DNA of 56,428 nt from an uncultured bacterium (GCA_903876815.1 CAIRBL010000080.1:1-56428), one strand, 5' to 3'; numbered from the stretch's first letter, positions 4,128-11,517 are shown. The notes: generated by a model not told the origin, from the letters alone. Translations and numbers: made by a program.

Positions 4128-5597
4128 TTACTCCAAAATAGCTGGCGTCAATGGTAAGCCTGGTAATAAATAAGAATTGTATAACTGATCATCTACTGAC
4201 CACAAAAAATTGTTCTGCACATTTTCCGGCTGAATATTGATATTATCTGTTAAAAAATTAGCAGTCAAACGAGAGTCTGGTCCAGTTTTAGTTGTTTTAG
4301 CGATTAACTGTACATTTAACTCATCGGTCACAAGCAAAGAAGTTCCTCCCCAAAAAGTGAAAATAATCTGATCATTAACTACTTTGGAACTAGCCAAAAA
4401 CTTATCCTGAGACCAAAGTTCAAAATTTTCTACTTGAATATCTTGAGCCTTAATTTCCCAAGCTAACTTATGCAATTTAATATCTTGCTCACCTAAATTA
4501 GTAAATTTAAGGTCTGCTAGGGTATTCCAAGAATCAGTGAGTACATGACGTTGTGCTTGACTTTGAATAGACAAAACACTTGGCAAAACATTTAAGCGAG
4601 ACAAAGTGATATCTTCAGTCAAGCTGATCTGTTCCCCAGAAATAAAGCCTTTGCCACTAATAAAATTCAGAGTTACAGCATACTCACCAGTCTCCAATGT
4701 AGCCCAAAGTTCTAGAGCTAAATCTTCATTCGCCTTAATCAAAACTCCAGCTGGTAAATCAAAATCTAATTCTGAAGTCCCTGTTATACGAGATAACACT
4801 TGTCCCTTGGATGCTAAATAAAAATCTACCGGTTTTTCATTTTGAGAAAAAATAAAATTTATTTTCTGTAAATCTACCGTTTCACCTTGAGATGATAAAC
4901 TCAAATCAGCTATTTTAGTAGAAACTCCCGATGAAACAACAAAATTGTTTTTTAATAAATTGTTATAAGGTAAAATTTGTGCTTTTTCAACAATCAAAAC
5001 ATCCGTGCTACTCACAGGAAAAGTTCCGAGTGGCAAAACTTTTTTGCCTTGATAAGATAAATCTAAACTATCTATATCCTGAAAAAATATTTTAGTTTTT
5101 TGTCCTAATAAGTCATCTTCTAAAGCGTCAGCCTTTAAATGAAAATAATTTTTACCAGCTGATAAGGGATAGTCATCTAGCGTAAAAATTAGCTGTTTAT
5201 TGATAACTTGAACACTAGCATTGATTTGCGCTTGATTTTGATACAAAACCAACTTGGATAAAAAATCTTCATCCATCGTACCTTCGCTGCTAAAAACTAG
5301 TCTATTGAGACTAATATTTTCATAAGGACTATCAAGCACAAAATCAAACATAGCCACACTTGGACTACGTAAAACAAATTGTGAATTTCCCAGCTCATTA
5401 GCTGTAAAAACCTTGACTCTATCAAATTGAGAAATATCTTGACTTTGAGCCGATGATTTTGGTCCTTGATTTACACCGAGCCAAGCAGAAGTAAAAACAA
5501 AAAGAGACAATAATAAAAGACTAGCGTATAACTTGACACGCTGTGGTTTCTGAGAAATGAAATCTTTGTGTTGTGGTGAAACTAAATGCTCAAACAT
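4128..5597 (-). CDS. hypothetical membrane-anchored, beta-rich repeat protein
   Basis: N-terminal TM helix (LYASLLLLSLFVFTSAWLGV) followed by three or four similar ~100-aa modules. No recognisable catalytic motif. ATG at 5597 (track start 5615 is TTG). Confidence 0.6.
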   Translation of the reverse strand: MFEHLVSPQHKDFISQKPQRVKLYASLLLLSLFVFTSAWLGVNQGPKSSAQSQDISQFDRVKVFTANELGNSQFVLRSPSVAMFDFVLDSPYENISLNRLVFSSEGTMDEDFLSKLVLYQNQAQINASVQVINKQLIFTLDDYPLSAGKNYFHLKADALEDDLLGQKTKIFFQDIDSLDLSYQGKKVLPLGTFPVSSTDVLIVEKAQILPYNNLLKNNFVVSSGVSTKIADLSLSSQGETVDLQKINFIFSQNEKPVDFYLASKGQVLSRITGTSELDFDLPAGVLIKANEDLALELWATLETGEYAVTLNFISGKGFISGEQISLTEDITLSRLNVLPSVLSIQSQAQRHVLTDSWNTLADLKFTNLGEQDIKLHKLAWEIKAQDIQVENFELWSQDKFLASSKVVNDQIIFTFWGGTSLLVTDELNVQLIAKTTKTGPDSRLTANFLTDNINIQPENVQNNFLWSVDDQLYNSYLLPGLPLTPAILE

Positions 5598-5603
5598 GTT
5601 TAT

Positions 5604-5612
5604 ATTATACCA
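5604..5612 (-). promoter_or_regulatory. extended -10 element (TGgTATAAT) 6 nt upstream of the 5597 ATG; possible leaderless transcript
   Basis: Minus strand reads TTGTGGTATAATATAAACATG. The -35 is weak (TTTTCT). Confidence 0.35.
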
Positions 5613-5633
5613 CAATTTTTTCTAAGAGAAAAA

Positions 5634-7944: not shown

Positions 7945-8283
7945 TTACTTACAAATTTGATCTATGGTGAGCTGTTGCGTCTGTGGATTACACAAAGCTT
8001 TGCCAATTTCTAAAATAGAAGCTTGGTCAGTAGAGCCAGCTGTGAAATTTTGTTCTACATCAAAACCAGACAATACACCGCTCATCATGTTGCCATACTG
8101 CTTGAGATATGGTGTCAAATAAAACAACCCCAACAATAATGGGCCGACAATTAAAATTAATTTTAAGACTCCAGCTAATTCTTGCCAAAAAATCTTTTTC
8201 TTAATTTTAAGTACTGTATTTTCCACTCGCGCTAAACTGGCTTGATTTTCTAAGATTAATTTTTCTAGTTCTTCTTGCGTCAT
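7945..8283 (-). CDS. hypothetical small membrane protein
   Basis: Coiled-coil-like N-terminus, one TM helix (LKLILIVGPLLLGLFYL) and two Cys near the C-terminus. No recognised motif. Confidence 0.5.
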   Translation of the reverse strand: MTQEELEKLILENQASLARVENTVLKIKKKIFWQELAGVLKLILIVGPLLLGLFYLTPYLKQYGNMMSGVLSGFDVEQNFTAGSTDQASILEIGKALCNPQTQQLTIDQICK

Positions 8284-8311: not shown

Positions 8312-8320
8312 ATTATAGCA
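8312..8320 (-). promoter_or_regulatory. extended -10 element (TGcTATAAT) upstream of the 112-aa gene
   Basis: Minus strand reads CACTTTTTTGCTATAATAAAG, about 28 nt before the ATG at 8283. Confidence 0.35.
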
Positions 8321-8347: not shown

Positions 8348-8926
8348 TTATTTACGCCACAATTTGTGCCAACGACCAGTTTTGAACAACCACCATTTAT
8401 GATGTAAAAGAAAATCTAAATCCAAAAATTTATGTTGTTTACGATTAAAAAACCAGAGACACATCAACCAAAGTAAATAGACAAAAATTGCAAAAACTAA
8501 AAATCCAAAGCTTAAAATAAGCCATTGCCAAACACTACTGATTTTTGCCGTATTGATTGTTAAAGGAATTTTGATACCAGAAGCAGCTTTAAAACTATTT
8601 TGATGCAAAGCTTGGCTGATAACTGATAAATTTGTCTTTTGTACAGCTGACACTTGAGTAGAAAAATTAGCTGTCAGCTCAATCATCATGATTTCTTCTG
8701 GCAAAAGATTGAATTCACTAGGCTCAATTTTAATATTGTTGACCAAAGCATCAGCTTGCACTCGTACAAAAATAGGCTCGCTGGAAATATTGGTAATTTT
8801 TAATTTTTCTTGCTTATTTTGCGGATAATCTAGCTCTATTTTAGCTGGCTCCACTGCCAAACCAACCGCCCCAACATGTAGTGGTACCAAAAAAAGCAAA
8901 AATAGAAAAATAAATTTCACGCGCAT
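8348..8926 (-). CDS. secreted Ig/PapD-like beta-sandwich protein with C-terminal TM anchor and basic tail
   Basis: Signal peptide; LAVEPAKIELDYPQNKQEKLKITNISSEPIFVRVQ resembles the last domain of the upstream 586-aa protein; C-terminal TM helix plus a K/R/H/W-rich tail. 6-nt gap from the upstream gene. Confidence 0.55.
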   Translation of the reverse strand: MRVKFIFLFLLFLVPLHVGAVGLAVEPAKIELDYPQNKQEKLKITNISSEPIFVRVQADALVNNIKIEPSEFNLLPEEIMMIELTANFSTQVSAVQKTNLSVISQALHQNSFKAASGIKIPLTINTAKISSVWQWLILSFGFLVFAIFVYLLWLMCLWFFNRKQHKFLDLDFLLHHKWWLFKTGRWHKLWRK

Positions 8927-8932
8927 AAAAAA

Positions 8933-10693
8933 TTATTGTGCTTGTGCCCAAAAAATTAACTGACCAGTTTGGTTACCTGAGCTGGATAAATTGTTTGGCA
9001 AACTGAGCTTCACACTCACAGACTCAGAGCCAGCTACACCCAACTGCTCTTGCCAATTTTGCCAAATAATATTTTCTAAACTAGTGTGTTGCACAAAAAC
9101 ATCAGAACCTGAAATATTAGCTTCCAAATGAATGGCTACGTTACCTGTGTTATGAACTTGCAAAATATTTTCTCCAATTTGACCTGGTTGTAACTGACCA
9201 AAATTTAGACTAGCTTGACTGACAGAAAACGAAACTTGTTCTGGTGGGTTTTCTTCTCCATCATTGTCTATATTTACTGACAAATCTACACTCTGACTAA
9301 ACCCAGAACCAAGCGTAACGTAAACCTTGGGACTTCTAATATAATCATCATTTTGCACCACATAAACCGGATACACGCCATTATTAGCTAAATTTAAACT
9401 TAAACTGCCACTAGCGTCGGTATTTAAAACTTGATCACCGACTTGCACTGCCTGATTGCTTAAATTGTGCCAAGTACCATCATGATATTGGGCTTGCACA
9501 TTCAGAATATTTTCACTCAAAGTAGCTGTTAAACGACTAGGCAAAATATCAAAGGGACCATAAGCCCACAAAATTTCATCACCGTCAGCCACTGTCTGCA
9601 CATTAGCTGCCTGTGAGCCTGCTTGCCAATTTTGCCAATACTGCCAACCACTAACTCCTTGTCCACTAAAACCAGCAATCATGGAAACATAAGGCCCATA
9701 CTCTGTATCTTGGATTTGATAAGTAAAATTACACACACTCGCAGCACTAACCAAAACATCTAACACTGTTTGGCCACTCAAATTATCGGCTAAACAAATA
9801 GTATCAGTCGGGCCCTCAATTCTAATGCTGACCTGTGTATCGTTATTATTATTTTCTTCAGCAGGAATATCTATGTGATTGACGGGATAGCTTTTGTCTA
9901 AAATAGCAAGCAAGGCATAGGCTGTGACCATACCAGAGCCCTGTGTATCACTTGGGAGCCATAAAAATGAACCGTCTGCTTGTTGTAAACTGTTTAAAAA
10001 ACTTAAAGGTGTATTAGCGCCTTGAGACCAAGTATTAGCATCAATATCTAGCTTATTTAAAGCCGCTAGTACCCAAGCTGTTGAAGCGCCATCTGAGTCA
10101 CTAGCTGCATCATAAGCAAAACCACCATTTGTTTTTTGCGTAGTTTGTAGATAATTTAAAGCATTGATAATAGCTGTATTACTGCTAGCCACACCAGCCT
10201 CCTTGAGAGCCATAATAGCTGCCGCTGTATCATTACTGTCTGAAGTGCCACTTGTGGCCCAAGACCAACCACCATCAGTATTTTGATGACTTAAAATAAA
10301 ATCTTTCACGCTATTAAAGTCTCCGGCTTTATTTACTGAGCCTGCTGCCAACAAAGCCCAAAAATCATCATTTAATTGCGTATCAGAACCAAACTGACCA
10401 TTACTAATATGTCCGCTCAAAGTTGCAAACAAAGTACGCAAAGTCTCAAAATCCTGACTTTGTACAGAGCTCAAAGCTAATAAATATTTAGCCACTTTCA
10501 TAAGATCTTGCTCTTGAGGATTGACGTAGCTAGTTGATAAATTTTGCTGATTAGCTGCTGCTAAACTTTGTGTAATCCAAGGATTTTGCGTTTGCGCTTG
10601 CAAATACTGGATAGCACTAGCATTGTCGGCAAAAGATAAAAATGGCACTAACAACAAGGCATTGAGTAAAAATAAAGCAAGAATTTTTTTCAT
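8933..10693 (-). CDS. secreted transcobalamin-like protein: alpha/alpha-toroid (prenyltransferase/SQHop-type) repeats, DUF4430 (transcobalamin-like C-terminal) domain and two Ig-like domains
   Basis: Signal peptide. Repeats NTDGGWSW, TNGGFAY and ADGSFLW. DUF4430-like GVSGWQYWQNWQAGSQAANVQTVADGDEILWAYG (about 9568..9832). Lies directly behind a cobalamin riboswitch. Confidence 0.65.
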   Translation of the reverse strand: MKKILALFLLNALLLVPFLSFADNASAIQYLQAQTQNPWITQSLAAANQQNLSTSYVNPQEQDLMKVAKYLLALSSVQSQDFETLRTLFATLSGHISNGQFGSDTQLNDDFWALLAAGSVNKAGDFNSVKDFILSHQNTDGGWSWATSGTSDSNDTAAAIMALKEAGVASSNTAIINALNYLQTTQKTNGGFAYDAASDSDGASTAWVLAALNKLDIDANTWSQGANTPLSFLNSLQQADGSFLWLPSDTQGSGMVTAYALLAILDKSYPVNHIDIPAEENNNNDTQVSIRIEGPTDTICLADNLSGQTVLDVLVSAASVCNFTYQIQDTEYGPYVSMIAGFSGQGVSGWQYWQNWQAGSQAANVQTVADGDEILWAYGPFDILPSRLTATLSENILNVQAQYHDGTWHNLSNQAVQVGDQVLNTDASGSLSLNLANNGVYPVYVVQNDDYIRSPKVYVTLGSGFSQSVDLSVNIDNDGEENPPEQVSFSVSQASLNFGQLQPGQIGENILQVHNTGNVAIHLEANISGSDVFVQHTSLENIIWQNWQEQLGVAGSESVSVKLSLPNNLSSSGNQTGQLIFWAQAQ

Positions 10694-10738
10694 AGAATTA
10701 TTATTTTAAAATTTATATTCAAAATCAATCATTGGTAT

Positions 10739-10755
10739 CCCCGCCTTTGGCGGGG
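10739..10755 (-). other. GC-rich hairpin between the riboswitch terminator and the start codon
   Basis: CCCCGCC-TTT-GGCGGGG, a 7-bp G:C stem. No adjacent U-run on either strand. Confidence 0.4.
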
Positions 10756-10787
10756 TTCCGCTCAATTTTATAAAATTATTGAAGCGT

Positions 10788-10813
10788 AAAAAAATCTCCT
10801 GATTTCCAGGAGA
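10788..10813 (-). terminator. intrinsic terminator forming the riboswitch expression platform
   Basis: Minus strand reads UCUCCUG-GAAA-UCAGGAGA followed by U7. The upstream AGGAGA words (CCUAAGGAGAAAAGGAG) could pair with the 5' arm as an antiterminator. Confidence 0.75.
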
Positions 10814-10879
10814 CAACGAGTAAGTCTATTATCTTTTGACATGTGATGATAACAAGCTCACTCCTTTTCTCCTTAGGAA

Positions 10880-11000
10880 AAAGAATAAACAAACTTCAGG
10901 TATCTGACTTATCTCCGCCAATGGCAGAGCTTACAGTAGCTAGGACTGTGGAGGTTTTACACCTCGCTTCCCTGATTAAATTTTAAAGGTAACTTTCGCT
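10880..11000 (-). promoter_or_regulatory. cobalamin (B12) riboswitch aptamer
   Basis: Minus strand reads AAUCAGGGAAGCGAGGUGUAAAACCUCCACAGUCCUAGCUACUGUAAGC, then hairpin CUCUGCC-AUU-GGCGGAG, then the B12-box-like AAGUCAGAUACCUGAAG (10894..10910). This matches the GGGAA..GGUG.AA..CC..C.G.CC..GC.ACUGUAA core. Confidence 0.8.
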
Positions 11001-11005
11001 CTCAA

Positions 11006-11034
11006 ACTTTAGCACAAGATTTTAGCTTTGACAA
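11006..11034 (-). promoter_or_regulatory. sigma70-type promoter for the riboswitch transcript
   Basis: TTGTCA (11034..11029), 17-nt spacer ending in TGc, then TAAAGT (11011..11006). Confidence 0.45.
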
Positions 11035-11055: not shown

Positions 11056-11517
11056 TTATAGTGATTTTTTCTTTAATAATCTATTTAGCTCGGTCTGAAA
11101 AGTCTGCGCGTCTTTAAATGACCGATAAACAGACGCATAGCGAATATAAGCAACTTGATCAAAGTTTTTCAACTTTTTCATGACAATATCACCTAAAACT
11201 TTTGAAGTAATTTCACCTTTAGACACTTTGGTGATTTCTCTCTCTATTTCTGAAACTAATTTTTGAAAATTTTCTTCTAAATAAGATCTTTTTTCTAAAG
11301 AAGTGCGCAAACCCCTCACTATTTTATCTCGATTATAAGTCTCTCTTCTACCATCACGCTTAATAACCACCAGATCCAAAATCTCTATCGCTTCTAGAGT
11401 AGAAAATCTCATTTTACACTTAAGGCACTCACGTCTGCGACGAATATTAAAACCCCCGCCACTTAAACGAGAGTCTATCACTTTTGTATCTTGATGATTA
11501 CAAGCTGGACAATGCAT
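11056..11517 (-). CDS. nrdR: transcriptional repressor NrdR
   Basis: MHCPACNHQDTKVIDSR...CLKCKMRFSTLE zinc ribbon plus an ATP-cone. Confidence 0.9.
   Translation of the reverse strand: MHCPACNHQDTKVIDSRLSGGGFNIRRRRECLKCKMRFSTLEAIEILDLVVIKRDGRRETYNRDKIVRGLRTSLEKRSYLEENFQKLVSEIEREITKVSKGEITSKVLGDIVMKKLKNFDQVAYIRYASVYRSFKDAQTFQTELNRLLKKKSL

What the first reader, a model, noticed from the sequence alone, without database searches (positions are those of the whole stretch)
8348..11034. Cobalamin riboswitch drives a transcobalamin-like secreted protein and an anchored Ig-like protein, with no known B12 transporter
The leader has a promoter (TTGTCA-17-TAAAGT), a B12 aptamer core (GGGAAGCGAGGUGUAAAACCUCCACAGUCCUAGCUACUGUAAGC plus the B12 box AAGUCAGAUACCUG) and a clean terminator (UCUCCUG-GAAA-UCAGGAGA-U7). 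The first regulated gene combines alpha/alpha-toroid repeats (DGGWSW, NGGFAY, DGSFLW) with a DUF4430 domain. That is the domain pair of eukaryotic transcobalamin and intrinsic factor. Two Ig-like domains follow. The second gene, 6 nt downstream, is an Ig-like protein with a C-terminal TM anchor and a basic tail. No BtuCDF, ECF-CbrT, BtuM or BtuB-like gene lies in the operon. The pair could therefore be a surface B12-capture module of undescribed type in an auxotrophic small-genome bacterium. nrdR sits immediately upstream, which loosely fits a B12-dependent ribonucleotide reductase economy; this last point is speculative.
Basis: partly seen in the sequence, partly recalled or inferred. Interest (0 to 1): 0.72.

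Follow-up and report, generated by a model that had tools for sequence, protein, structure and literature searches.

The report
B12 riboswitch controls transcobalamin-like catcher
In a tiny-genome (Patescibacteria/CPR) bacterium, a vitamin-B12-sensing RNA switch controls two genes, one for a secreted protein built like the human B12 carrier transcobalamin and one for a membrane-anchored partner; together they most likely catch scarce B12 at the cell surface, a kind of protein predicted in 2007 but not described in this riboswitch-linked CPR form in the literature I could search.

Summary
A cobalamin riboswitch (RF00174, 34.8 bits against a gathering score of 31.5) with an intrinsic terminator precedes two tightly coupled genes. 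The first encodes a 586-aa secreted protein whose AlphaFold model best matches transcobalamin, intrinsic factor and haptocorrin over both domains (Foldseek E 4.5e-12). Two Ig-like domains follow. The second encodes a 192-aa PapD/MSP-like beta-sandwich with a C-terminal TM anchor. The riboswitch-gene link holds in 26 of 26 full-length family loci with enough upstream sequence, and its structure co-varies (22 of 29 pairs). The window holds no transporter gene. The claim of an "undescribed type" is too strong, because Burroughs et al. 2007 predicted secreted bacterial toroid+SLBB B12 scavengers. Relatives at 30-39% identity continue the operon with a small DUF4430 protein and a CbrT-like S-component (DUF6580). 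One more distant locus carries a full ECF transporter. Several relatives have a class II-type ribonucleotide reductase, and most of those a corrinoid adenosyltransferase, just upstream. Best reading: a B12-repressed surface capture front-end that feeds an S-component-type importer encoded elsewhere. Whether this genome has that importer could not be tested. Verdict: new variant of a known kind, moderate interest.

The parts
11006..11034 (-). Promoter-like site, TTGTCA-17 nt-TAAAGT with a TG extension (extended -10)
   Evidence: The site is not significant on its own (12 sites found, 11.3 expected by chance). The TGYTAARRT box recurs just upstream of the aptamer in six homologous leaders.
10878..11011 (-). 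Cobalamin riboswitch aptamer, compact, with a short P6 extension
   Evidence: RF00174 at 34.8 bits against a gathering score of 31.5. Own model R1 scores 145 bits over 10861..11002. On 28 homologous leaders, 22 of 29 pairs show compensatory changes and 91% of cells are paired, against 40-55% in slid controls.
10856..10890 (-). Conserved P13-like hairpin at the 3' end of the aptamer (UUAUUCUUUUUCC-UAA-GGAGAAAAGGAG)
   Evidence: The sequence is nearly invariant in clade A. Its role as a kissing-loop partner is inferred, not shown.
10787..10814 (-). Intrinsic terminator of the expression platform (9-bp stem, AAA loop, U7)
   Evidence: An equivalent hairpin plus U-run follows the riboswitch in 13 of 14 leaders, with different stem sequences that keep the pairing.
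10739..10755 (-). GC-rich hairpin CCCCGCC-AAA-GGCGGGG between the terminator and the start codon; function unknown
   Evidence: Read directly from the sequence and present in the MFE fold.
8933..10693 (-). Gene 1: 586-aa secreted transcobalamin-like protein. Signal peptide residues 1-22, alpha/alpha toroid ~25-265 (nt 9899-10621), SLBB/DUF4430 beta-grasp ~286-381 (nt 9551-9838), Ig-like domain 1 ~384-462 (nt 9308-9544), disordered linker 464-480, PapD-like Ig domain 2 ~486-586 (nt 8936-9238).
   Evidence: Pfam. AF2 model with pLDDT 89.9. The 15 best Foldseek PDB hits are transcobalamin, intrinsic factor or haptocorrin, with E from 4.5e-12. The family profile hits the TC-2 beta-domain at E 2e-7. 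Family alignment.
8348..8926 (-). Gene 2: 192-aa membrane-anchored PapD/MSP-like Ig-fold protein. Signal peptide 1-20, beta-sandwich ~21-126, TM helix ~131-165, conserved basic amphipathic tail.
   Evidence: Weak Pfam hits to Cep192_D6 and MSP. AF2 model with pLDDT 69. Foldseek best hits are MSP/VAP domains and pilus chaperones, E 6e-8, TMt up to 0.71. The gene starts 2-8 nt after gene 1 in all 10 clade-A loci and follows a TC-like gene in 33 loci.
8312..8320 (-). Extended -10 box TGCTATAAT in the 64-nt gap before the next gene; marks the likely 3' limit of the riboswitch-controlled unit
   Evidence: TTTTTTGnTATAAT is conserved in this gap in 10 of 10 clade-A loci. L006, L007, L010 and L011 also have a hairpin plus T-run just before it.
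7945..8283 (-). Conserved neighbour: 112-aa single-TM protein (N-terminal coiled coil, C-terminal Cys pair). Probably its own transcription unit; link to B12 unproven.
   Evidence: Present next to the operon in all clade-A loci and nearby in L008 and L019. No Pfam or NCBIfam hit. Own promoter box.

Best explanation
This is a B12-repressed two-gene unit that encodes the extracytoplasmic capture stage of cobalamin salvage in a Patescibacteria (CPR) bacterium.

Proposed mechanism:
1. When intracellular cobalamin is high, it binds the leader aptamer, the intrinsic terminator 64 nt further on forms, and transcription stops before gene 1. This makes it an OFF switch.
2. When B12 is low, both genes are transcribed and translated as a coupled pair.
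3. Gene 1 is exported by Sec. It binds a corrinoid between its alpha/alpha-toroid and its SLBB beta-grasp domain, as transcobalamin, intrinsic factor and haptocorrin do.
4. Gene 1's two C-terminal Ig-like domains act as a stalk. They dock onto gene 2, a PapD/MSP-like beta-sandwich held in the membrane by a C-terminal TM helix, so the binder stays at the cell surface.
5. Captured B12 is then passed to an S-component-type membrane importer (DUF6580/CbrT-like or ECF). In this lineage that importer is not in the operon and must be encoded elsewhere.
6. The likely consumer is an AdoCbl-dependent class II ribonucleotide reductase.

Shown here: the riboswitch, the terminator, the folds, the gene coupling, and the conserved genomic associations.
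Inferred: the ligand, the tethering role of gene 2, the hand-off to an importer, and the consumer enzyme.
For: Riboswitch and terminator:
- RF00174 scores above its gathering cut-off, and the terminator lies just downstream.
- A cobalamin-clan riboswitch lies upstream on the same strand in 26 of 26 full-length family loci that have at least 450 nt of upstream sequence. Rfam matches at gathering score occur in L002, L003, L004, L007, L021, L024, L026, L027 and L032.
- Covariation supports the structure.
- A terminator follows the riboswitch in 13 of 14 leaders, with stems that vary in sequence but keep pairing.

Transcobalamin-like binder:
- The 15 best PDB fold matches are all transcobalamin, intrinsic factor or haptocorrin, aligned over ~400-430 columns across both domains.
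- The family profile hits the TC beta-domain at E 2e-7.
- The beta-hairpin insert after the beta-grasp helix, which defines the TC-like SLBB clade, is present in the model (compared with PMC1796856).
- The protein has a signal peptide, and A22 at the predicted cleavage site is nearly invariant.

Partner protein:
- PapD/MSP fold followed by a TM helix.
- Found next to a TC-like gene in 33 loci, with 2-8 nt gaps in clade A.

Link to transport:
- 13 loci continue with a small DUF4430 gene and a DUF6580 gene. DUF6580 matches CbrT of ECF-CbrT (PDB 6FNP) at E 1.9e-4.
- ECF S-components follow the TC-like gene in L038, L040 and L051.
- L042 carries EcfT, a double ATPase and an S-component.

Link to B12 use:
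- A class II-type RNR lies directly upstream in L012, L019, L020, L021 and L063.
- Adenosyltransferase genes: CobA or PduO-type upstream in L012, L019 and L021, CobA next to the operon in L008, and CobA inside the operon in L020.
Against: - No binding or transport experiment exists for any member of this family that I could find.
- Whole-chain TM-scores to transcobalamin are modest (0.33-0.45 normalised by target, rmsd ~24 A). The match rests on two domains whose relative orientation differs.
- By sequence, the toroid is closer to squalene-hopene cyclase and prenyltransferase repeats than to Pfam's eukaryotic cobalamin-binding family.
- The RF00174 score is only 3.3 bits above the cut-off.
- No importer is found in the window, and none of the 10 clade-A loci has one within 5 kb downstream. 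The hand-off step therefore has no direct support in this lineage.
- The tethering role of gene 2 rests only on adjacency and fold. hhalign similarity to gene 1's last Ig domain is weak (E 5e-4, probability 31%).
- The specific antiterminator pairing I proposed was not better than shuffled controls.
Confidence: 0.72

Rival explanations
1. A self-sufficient, new uptake route. In this lineage the transcobalamin-like binder and its anchored partner, perhaps with the neighbouring 112-aa TM protein, deliver B12 across the membrane without any S-component, ABC, BtuM or BtuB-type transporter.
For: - None of the 10 clade-A loci has a transporter gene in or next to the operon.
- The 56-kb window has no DUF6580 or ECF-S homolog.
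- Among the 120 listed DUF6580 homologs, none shares a contig-length fingerprint with clade-A contigs.
- The 112-aa TM protein is a conserved neighbour.
Against: - Two or three single-pass TM helices are not a plausible pathway for a 1.3-kDa polar cofactor (general knowledge).
- Every more distant branch of the family is linked to S-component-type proteins.
- Group II ECF S-components are typically encoded away from their partners (general knowledge of ECF transporters).
- Only 56 kb of the genome was visible, and only 120 of 943 DUF6580 hits were listed.
- The 112-aa gene has its own conserved promoter box.
Confidence: 0.12
2. Surface sequestration or storage rather than import. The pair hoards corrinoids at the cell surface, either to compete with neighbours or to take B12 from the host cell to which a CPR episymbiont attaches, and import is a separate and independent matter.
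For: - The architecture is that of a high-affinity binder on a stalk.
- The operon is not coupled to a transporter in clade A.
- CPR bacteria are often episymbionts (general knowledge).
Against: - Repression by intracellular B12 through a riboswitch is the signature of an acquisition function serving the cell's own pool (general knowledge of cobalamin riboswitch regulons).
- Relatives couple the same pair to S-components, to adenosyltransferases and to a class II-type RNR.
Confidence: 0.08
3. The binder's ligand is another tetrapyrrole or an incomplete corrinoid (cobinamide or heme) rather than complete cobalamin. Heme was proposed for the Lactobacillus sakei transcobalamin-like pair Lsa1839/1840.
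For: - A bioRxiv paper (10.1101/864751) models heme in transcobalamin-like proteins of an ECF-like operon.
- Burroughs et al. wrote "B12 or its precursors".
- ECF-CbrT also transports cobinamide, according to my recollection of PMC5997447.
Against: - A cobalamin riboswitch is found in 26 of 26 full-length family loci with enough upstream sequence.
- Adenosyltransferase and class II-type RNR genes are neighbours.
- Nothing heme-related appears in the neighbourhood census.
Confidence: 0.05
4. The protein is a secreted terpenoid cyclase, a prenyl-binding enzyme or a cell-wall enzyme, and the riboswitch hit is a chance match.
For: The best sequence matches of residues ~100-260 are to squalene-hopene cyclase and prenyltransferase repeats.
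Against: - The riboswitch is conserved and co-varies.
- Where the protein aligns to the cyclase catalytic DxDD motif, it has DSND with N154 nearly invariant, although that alignment is weak.
- The protein carries a signal peptide and extracellular Ig domains, while isoprenoid diphosphate substrates are cytoplasmic.
- By fold, the transcobalamin family outranks cyclases and prenyltransferases by about 5 orders of magnitude in E-value.
Confidence: 0.02

Closest known systems
Animal transcobalamin, intrinsic factor and haptocorrin (PDB 2BB5, 4ZRP, 2PMV, 4KKI)
   Same: [quoted passage not shown]
- These are the best fold matches over both domains.
- The beta-domain is detectable by sequence profile.
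   Different: - 15-18% identity.
- By sequence, the toroid resembles cyclase and prenyltransferase repeats, and PF01122 was not matched.
- Two extra Ig-like domains at the C-terminus.
- Bacterial, under riboswitch control, and paired with a membrane anchor rather than with a receptor such as CD320 or cubilin.
- B12 binding is untested.
Bacterial transcobalamin-like SLBB proteins predicted by Burroughs, Balaji, Iyer and Aravind 2007 (PMC1796856), including Lsa1839/1840 of L. sakei (bioRxiv 10.1101/864751)
   Same: - Signal peptide, toroid+SLBB fusion and Ig-fold additions.
- Occurrence in organisms that lack B12 synthesis.
- A predicted role in scavenging B12.
- A paralogous small SLBB protein in the same operon in clade B.
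   Different: - Those proteins were described mainly in low-GC Gram-positives, in operons with CbiO/CbiQ.
- Here the lineage is Patescibacteria, with a fixed four-domain ~590-aa architecture and a constant PapD-like TM-anchored partner.
- A B12 riboswitch is present, which that paper does not mention.
- In the window's clade there is no CbiO/CbiQ or S-component in the operon.
ECF-CbrT vitamin B12 transporter (PDB 6FNP; Santos et al. 2018, PMC5997447)
   Same: - Relatives' operons end in DUF6580, which matches CbrT at E 1.9e-4.
- L040's S-component matches both the ECF-S families and DUF6580.
- L042 has a full ECF module.
   Different: - The window encodes none of these components.
- As far as I recall, ECF-CbrT as characterised works without an extracellular binding protein.
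- Clade-B operons show no EcfT or EcfA next to DUF6580.
Surface or periplasmic B12 capture proteins of other systems: BtuF (BtuCDF) and the BtuG lipoprotein of Bacteroides (from my own knowledge, not tested here)
   Same: They do the same job: an extracytoplasmic high-affinity B12 binder that feeds a membrane transporter, encoded behind a cobalamin riboswitch.
   Different: - Unrelated folds (BtuF is a class III substrate-binding protein; BtuG is a beta-propeller).
- Different transporters (a type II ABC importer; the TonB-dependent BtuB).

Membership tests
Cobalamin riboswitch (Rfam RF00174, clan CL00101) | Score at or above the curated gathering threshold | tested here: met
   34.8 bits against 31.5, E 3.3e-05, full model span 1-189. 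Relatives pass the cut-offs of RF00174, RF01482 or RF01689.
Cobalamin riboswitch (Rfam RF00174, clan CL00101) | Conserved core and B12 box (GGGAAG...GGUG...CC, AGUCAGAUACCUG) with helices supported by covariation | tested here: met
   The core is invariant in 8 leaders. 22 of 29 pairs show compensatory changes, and no shuffle out of 500 reached the observed values. Caveat: that alignment was fitted to the model.
Cobalamin riboswitch (Rfam RF00174, clan CL00101) | Peripheral P6 extension typical of class I AdoCbl aptamers | tested here: inconclusive
   The Rfam alignment replaces 62 model positions with 13 nt, so the aptamer is compact. Relatives score best with RF01482 or RF01689. The ligand form (AdoCbl, MeCbl or OHCbl) cannot be assigned.
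Cobalamin riboswitch (Rfam RF00174, clan CL00101) | Cobalamin binding and ligand-dependent termination | not testable with these tools
   This needs in-line probing and transcription assays. Only the terminator's presence and conservation are shown.
Transcobalamin / intrinsic factor / haptocorrin-type B12 binder | N-terminal alpha/alpha-toroid followed by a C-terminal beta-grasp (SLBB) domain | tested here: met
   AF2 model, pLDDT 89.9: helices at 25-264, then a beta-grasp at 288-380. The 15 best Foldseek hits are this family, aligned over ~400-430 columns.
Transcobalamin / intrinsic factor / haptocorrin-type B12 binder | [quoted passage not shown] | tested here: met
   Order of elements in the model: E288-293, E298-305, H310-321, E325-330, E333-339, E348-354, E373-380. 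Pfam DUF4430 scores 32.6 bits against a cut-off of 23.8. The profile hits the TC-2 beta-domain at E 2e-7.
Transcobalamin / intrinsic factor / haptocorrin-type B12 binder | Sequence membership of the alpha-domain in the eukaryotic cobalamin-binding family (PF01122) | tested here: not met
   The Pfam scan at E up to 1 reports Prenyltrans and SQHop_cyclase for residues 102-256, not PF01122. I therefore file it as TC-like in architecture and fold, not as a member of the eukaryotic family.
Transcobalamin / intrinsic factor / haptocorrin-type B12 binder | Binds one cobalamin between the two domains | not testable with these tools
   No ligand-aware modelling or experiment was available.
Bacterial SLBB B12-scavenging operons (Burroughs et al. 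2007) | Encoded with CbiO-like ATPase and CbiQ-like membrane protein genes | tested here: not met
   Absent from the window and from all 10 clade-A loci. Present in the distant relative L042.
ECF-CbrT / S-component-type B12 importer | An S-component membrane protein (CbrT, DUF6580, PF12822 or PF07155) in the unit | tested here: not met
   None in the 56 kb (best DUF6580 HMM E-value 0.16). It is met in relatives: 13 loci with DUF6580, plus L038, L040, L051 and L042.
BtuCDF / BtuB / BtuM | Any of these genes in or beside the operon | tested here: not met
   The flanking genes are nrdR, ftsZ, ftsA, a 112-aa TM protein, htrA and prfB. The 24 window ORFs scanned with Pfam gave housekeeping families only. 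The rest of the genome was not available.
Class II terpene cyclase / prenyltransferase enzymes | Catalytic DxDD motif (cyclases), and a cytoplasmic or membrane-embedded location | tested here: not met
   The stretch that aligns to squalene-hopene cyclase D374-V-D-D reads D152-S-N-D, with N154 nearly invariant. That alignment stretch is weak. The protein has a Sec signal peptide and extracellular Ig domains.
PapD-like / MSP (ASH) Ig-fold domain (gene 2) | Seven- to nine-stranded beta-sandwich of the PapD/MSP type | tested here: met
   Foldseek best hits are MSP, VAP-A, FimC, Caf1M and Cep192 ASH domains, E 6e-8 to 1e-6, TMt 0.6-0.71. The model confidence is only moderate (pLDDT 69). The Pfam hits are below the gathering score (25.3 against 35).

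The most novel reading that the evidence does not exclude
In the window's clade of Patescibacteria, the transcobalamin-like binder and its PapD-like anchor may operate without any S-component, ABC or TonB-type B12 transporter in the genome. B12 would then enter by an as yet unknown membrane route, or would be taken directly from a host cell surface by an episymbiont. On a related point, this deep-branching four-domain family would suggest that the toroid+SLBB B12 binder is much older and more widespread than the 'low-GC Gram-positive innovation' proposed for the origin of animal transcobalamin.
Probability: 0.12. Interest if true: 0.8.

Novelty: new variant of a known kind. Interest (0 to 1): 0.52.

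Why it matters
- CPR/Patescibacteria make up a large share of bacterial diversity, cannot make most cofactors, and have very few recognisable transporters. How they obtain B12 is not established in the literature I could search.
- This locus and its relatives give a coherent, testable salvage pathway: a riboswitch, a surface transcobalamin-like binder on a PapD-like anchor, then (in relatives) a small SLBB protein and a DUF6580/CbrT-like S-component, then a corrinoid adenosyltransferase, and finally a class II ribonucleotide reductase.
- It assigns probable functions to three uncharacterised families: DUF4430 fusions, DUF6580 and the anchored Ig-like protein.
- It offers a compact cobalamin riboswitch with a clean terminator for biochemistry.
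- It provides bacterial proteins with which to study the origin and ligand specificity of the transcobalamin fold. No bacterial member appears to have been characterised experimentally so far.

Tried and rejected
1. **Antiterminator model.** I proposed that the 3' arm of the P13-like hairpin (AGGAGA) pairs with the terminator's 5' arm (UCUCCU). Duplexes of 3-6 bp were matched by 9-99% of shuffles in 12 of 13 leaders, and the pairing fails in L007, L010, L011 and clade B. The switching helix therefore remains unidentified.
2. **Homology of gene 2 to gene 1's Ig domains.** hhalign gives only E 5e-4 (probability 31%) to Ig domain 2 and nothing to Ig domain 1. Common origin is not claimed.
3. **Is a DUF6580 gene present elsewhere in clade-A genomes?** I compared contig-length fingerprints between the two homolog lists. 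Matches occur only for clade B (36329, 6495, 4525, 253591). Only 120 of 943 hits are listed, so the absence is not informative.
4. **Genome-contig scan with a single sequence.** The metagenome scan with the alignment was far more productive.
5. **NrdR box near the promoter.** There is one chance-level match, far away at 20749. Direct NrdR control is rejected.
6. **Horizontal-transfer island.** GC content is uniform at 0.32-0.40 across 7-12 kb, and synteny is conserved. Rejected.
7. **The 112-aa TM protein as a third operon gene.** A conserved extended -10 box, and in some loci a terminator, lies in the gap. It is treated as a separate unit.
8. **Literature.** Ten searches found no description of the CPR system. 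Rodionov et al. 2009 was not held under the ID I recalled.
9. **One redundant call.** One search repeated.

Full report
**1. What is in the sequence**

All features lie on the minus strand, downstream of nrdR (11056-11517).

- Promoter: a promoter-like site TTGTCA-17-TAAAGT with a TG extension lies at 11034-11006.
- Riboswitch: a cobalamin riboswitch aptamer lies at 11011-10878. It is the only Rfam hit at gathering score in the whole 56-kb window (RF00174, 34.8 bits against 31.5, E 3.3e-05).
- Aptamer end: a conserved P13-like hairpin lies at 10890-10856.
- Terminator: a clean intrinsic terminator lies at 10814-10794, followed by U7.
- Folding energy: the 323-nt leader folds much better than shuffles (z = -4.7).
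- Gene 1 (10693-8933) encodes a 586-aa protein with a Sec signal peptide.
- Gene 2 (8926-8348) starts 6 nt after gene 1 and encodes a 192-aa protein.

The promoter cannot be distinguished from chance on its own, with 12 sites found against 11.3 expected. Its extended -10 box does recur in homologous leaders.

**2. Is the riboswitch real?**

The Rfam margin is small, so I tested it by comparison with related loci.

- Seven related loci from genomes and metagenomes all carry a cobalamin-clan match directly upstream of the orthologous gene. Four pass the RF00174 cut-off. Three match RF01482 just below its cut-off, with E from 1e-4 to 2e-7.
- I built a covariance model (R1) from these eight copies and searched 88 sources (724 kb). 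It hit 45 of them, always on the gene's strand.
- Of the 64 loci with at least 450 nt upstream of the TC-like ORF, 38 have a hit upstream within 1.5 kb.
- Within the full-length ~590-aa family, 25 of 26 such loci have a hit. The 26th, L027, has an Rfam AdoCbl-II match (RF01689) at gathering score.
- Rfam also confirms L021, L024, L026 and L032 at gathering score.
- On 28 aligned leaders, 91% of cells are paired against 40-55% for slid partners. 22 of 29 pairs show changes on both sides, and no shuffle out of 500 reached the observed values. This alignment was fitted to the model, so it leans towards the structure.
- A hairpin plus U-run follows the riboswitch in 13 of 14 leaders, with stems that differ in sequence but keep pairing.

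I conclude that this is a genuine cobalamin riboswitch acting through transcription termination. Which helix competes with the terminator is not established, because my candidate failed its control. The aptamer is compact: 62 model positions of the P6 extension are replaced by 13 nt. The preferred cobalamin form therefore cannot be inferred.

**3. Gene 1**

- Pfam gives Prenyltrans (residues 102-216) and DUF4430 (residues 307-378), both above their cut-offs.
- A 60-sequence family alignment gave an AlphaFold model with mean pLDDT 89.9. It shows a helical toroid at 25-264, a beta-grasp at 288-380 that includes the beta-hairpin insert after the helix, a beta-sandwich at 386-461, a disordered linker at 464-480, and a second beta-sandwich at 489-585.
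- Against the PDB, the 15 best Foldseek matches are all transcobalamin, intrinsic factor or haptocorrin. They align over about 400-430 columns, with E from 4.5e-12 to 5.8e-9.
- Prenyltransferases and squalene-hopene cyclases follow from E 2e-7.
- The large rmsd (~24 A) and modest TM-scores (0.33-0.45) fit two well-matched domains held in a different relative orientation.
- The family profile finds the transcobalamin beta-domain by sequence (5NO0, E 2e-7). By sequence, the toroid is nearest to cyclase repeats.
- The stretch that aligns with the cyclase DxDD motif reads DSND, with N154 nearly invariant. That alignment is weak.

Gene 1 therefore has the transcobalamin architecture and fold. It is not a sequence member of the eukaryotic family, since PF01122 was not matched.

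**4. Gene 2**

- Only weak Pfam hits are found (Cep192_D6, MSP), both below their cut-offs.
- A model built from 8 sequences (pLDDT 69) shows a beta-sandwich at 18-126, a long helix at 131-165 and short C-terminal helices.
- Foldseek places the sandwich with MSP/VAP domains, PapD-like pilus chaperones and Cep192 ASH domains (E 6e-8, TM up to 0.71 of the target).
- It follows a TC-like gene in 33 loci, with a 2-8 nt gap in all 10 loci of the window's clade.

PapD/MSP domains are protein-binding modules. I therefore infer that gene 2 tethers the secreted binder to the membrane, possibly through gene 1's last, Cep192-like domain. This is not shown, and direct similarity between the two domains is weak.

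**5. Limits of the unit**

The 64-nt gap after gene 2 holds a perfect extended -10 box (TGCTATAAT, 8320-8312). The box is conserved in 10 of 10 clade-A loci. In four of them a GC-rich hairpin plus T-run precedes it. The conserved 112-aa single-TM protein (8283-7945) is thus probably a separate transcription unit, and the riboswitch controls two genes.

**6. Context in relatives, which changes the interpretation**

The organism is a Patescibacteria/CPR bacterium. The sources name the nearest homologs as Patescibacteria, Nomurabacteria, Komeilibacteria and Parcubacteria. The family is large, with 216 clusters at 50% identity at E <= 1e-30. Operon composition is tabulated.

| Group | Identity to the window protein | Loci | Gene order |
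|---|---|---|---|
| Clade A (the window's clade) | >= 45% | 10 | nrdR, riboswitch, [small secreted ORF with an RRxFF signal in 6 of 10], TC-like, anchor, then the 112-aa TM protein, (htrA), prfB; never a transporter |
| Clade B | 30-39% | 13 | riboswitch, TC-like, anchor, small DUF4430 protein (~147 aa), DUF6580 (~180 aa) |
| More distant | lower | L038, L040, L051 | TC-like followed by ECF S-components (PF07155, PF12822) |
| More distant | lower | L042 | TC-like, anchor, toroid-like 320-aa protein, CbiQ/EcfT, fused double ABC ATPase, S-component |

- The small DUF4430 protein is a clear paralog of gene 1's SLBB domain (hhalign 99.2%, E 8e-20).
- DUF6580 is a multi-TM protein that matches CbrT, the S-component of the B12 ECF transporter 6FNP, at E 1.9e-4.
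- L040's S-component also matches DUF6580 weakly.
- L042 therefore carries a complete ECF transporter in the same gene string. L058, L061 and L066 show ORFs of the same sizes in the same order, but I did not scan them with Pfam.
- L052 and L053 have the same 174-aa ORF after the TC-like gene as L051, also not scanned.
- Upstream of the riboswitch in L012, L019, L020, L021 and L063 lies a ribonucleotide reductase with the class II-type layout (barrel plus TSCPD domain). L020 also matches the class II B12-dependent N-terminal domain.
- In L012, L019 and L021 a CobA/BtuR or PduO-type corrinoid adenosyltransferase follows the RNR. L008 has CobA next to the operon, and L020 has it inside the operon.
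- A Pfam census of 81 neighbouring ORFs is headed by ECF S-component families. Adenosyltransferases and ABC ATPases are among the families that recur.

**7. Mechanism proposed**

- Low intracellular B12 lets transcription read through the leader.
- The binder is secreted, held at the surface by the anchor, and captures corrinoids between its toroid and SLBB domains.
- The cofactor is then handed, in clade B perhaps via the small SLBB protein, to an S-component-type importer.
- Inside the cell it is adenosylated and used by a class II RNR.
- High B12 closes the switch.

The RNA element, the folds, the gene coupling and the associations are shown. The ligand, the tethering, the hand-off and the consumer enzyme are inferred.

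In this window the importer, the adenosyltransferase and the RNR are all absent. Only 56 kb of the genome is visible, so I could not test whether they lie elsewhere. I give that idea about 12%.

**8. Comparison with what is known**

- Burroughs, Balaji, Iyer and Aravind (2007, PMC1796856) defined the SLBB superfamily. They noted secreted bacterial toroid+SLBB fusions, some with Ig-fold domains and with paralogous SLBB genes alongside. These occur in operons with CbiO/CbiQ, in organisms lacking B12 synthesis, and the authors predicted B12 scavenging.
- A preprint modelled the L. sakei pair Lsa1839/1840 as heme binders in an ECF-like operon.
- I found no experimental characterisation of any bacterial member, and no paper linking Patescibacteria to transcobalamin-like proteins or cobalamin riboswitches.
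- What is new here:
  - the CPR-wide four-domain family;
  - its constant PapD-like anchored partner;
  - the consistent riboswitch;
  - the DUF6580 link to CbrT;
  - the nrdJ-cobA neighbourhood;
  - the transporter-less clade to which this window belongs.
- It works like transcobalamin, or like BtuF and BtuG in function. By sequence it is not a member of the eukaryotic transcobalamin family.

**9. Verdict**

I rate it a new variant of a known (predicted) kind, with interest about 0.5. It gives a concrete, testable model for B12 acquisition in CPR bacteria and assigns probable roles to three uncharacterised families.

Noticed in passing
L002:5498-5923, L003:5585-5935, L005:7523-7921, L006:7450-7938, L007:7410-7928, L009 (122-aa ORF between the riboswitch and the TC-like gene); absent from the window (10693-10790), L004, L010 and L011: A small secreted ORF (116-172 aa) with a twin-arginine-like RRxFF signal lies between the B12 riboswitch and the TC-like gene in 6 of 10 clade-A loci. 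That would make it the first riboswitch-controlled gene there. It has no Pfam or NCBIfam match, and the window has no remnant of it.
   Followed up: partly
window 10739-10755 (-): A GC-rich hairpin, CCCCGCC-AAA-GGCGGGG, sits between the riboswitch terminator and the start codon of gene 1. It stands out in an AT-rich leader. Its function is unknown; it might stabilise the mRNA, act as a second structural element, or be a remnant of the missing small ORF region.
   Followed up: no
window 7945-8283 (-), with its promoter box at 8312-8320: A 112-aa protein with an N-terminal coiled coil, one TM helix and a C-terminal Cys pair is conserved beside the B12 operon in every clade-A locus, and nearby in L008 and L019. 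It has its own conserved extended -10 box and matches no known family.
   Followed up: partly
L012:7-2328, L019:2097-4457, L020:2707-5598, L021:2653-5049, L063:79-2286: Class II-type ribonucleotide reductase genes (barrel plus TSCPD domain) lie directly upstream of the B12 riboswitch and TC-like operon in relatives, with CobA or PduO-type adenosyltransferase genes between them in L012, L019 and L021. In the window's clade the RNR regulator gene nrdR occupies that upstream position instead.
   Followed up: partly
window 16971-24935 (-) and 24974-26584 (-): A giant 2654-aa surface protein (faint/weak TIG and Big_5 hits) lies next to a 536-aa protein that has a T4SS_pilin domain plus Big_5 repeats. 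The arrangement is syntenic in relatives, where the giant protein itself carries T4SS_pilin and VWA domains. This may be a CPR attachment apparatus.
   Followed up: no
window 4128-5615 (-): A conserved 495-aa protein just after prfB has no Pfam or NCBIfam match. It is syntenic (485-496 aa) in all clade-A loci examined.
   Followed up: no
L012:5688-5907: A 220-nt GC-rich, strongly structured spacer lies between the TC-like gene and the anchor gene in this clade-B locus. Most loci have a gap or overlap of only a few nucleotides there.
   Followed up: no
L004 (contig CAZXZY010000021.1): The record title calls this contig 'uncultured Gammaproteobacteria bacterium', yet its gene content and order (ftsA-ftsZ-nrdR-riboswitch-TC-like-anchor-TM112-prfB) match the Patescibacteria loci. 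It is probably a mis-binned contig.
   Followed up: no
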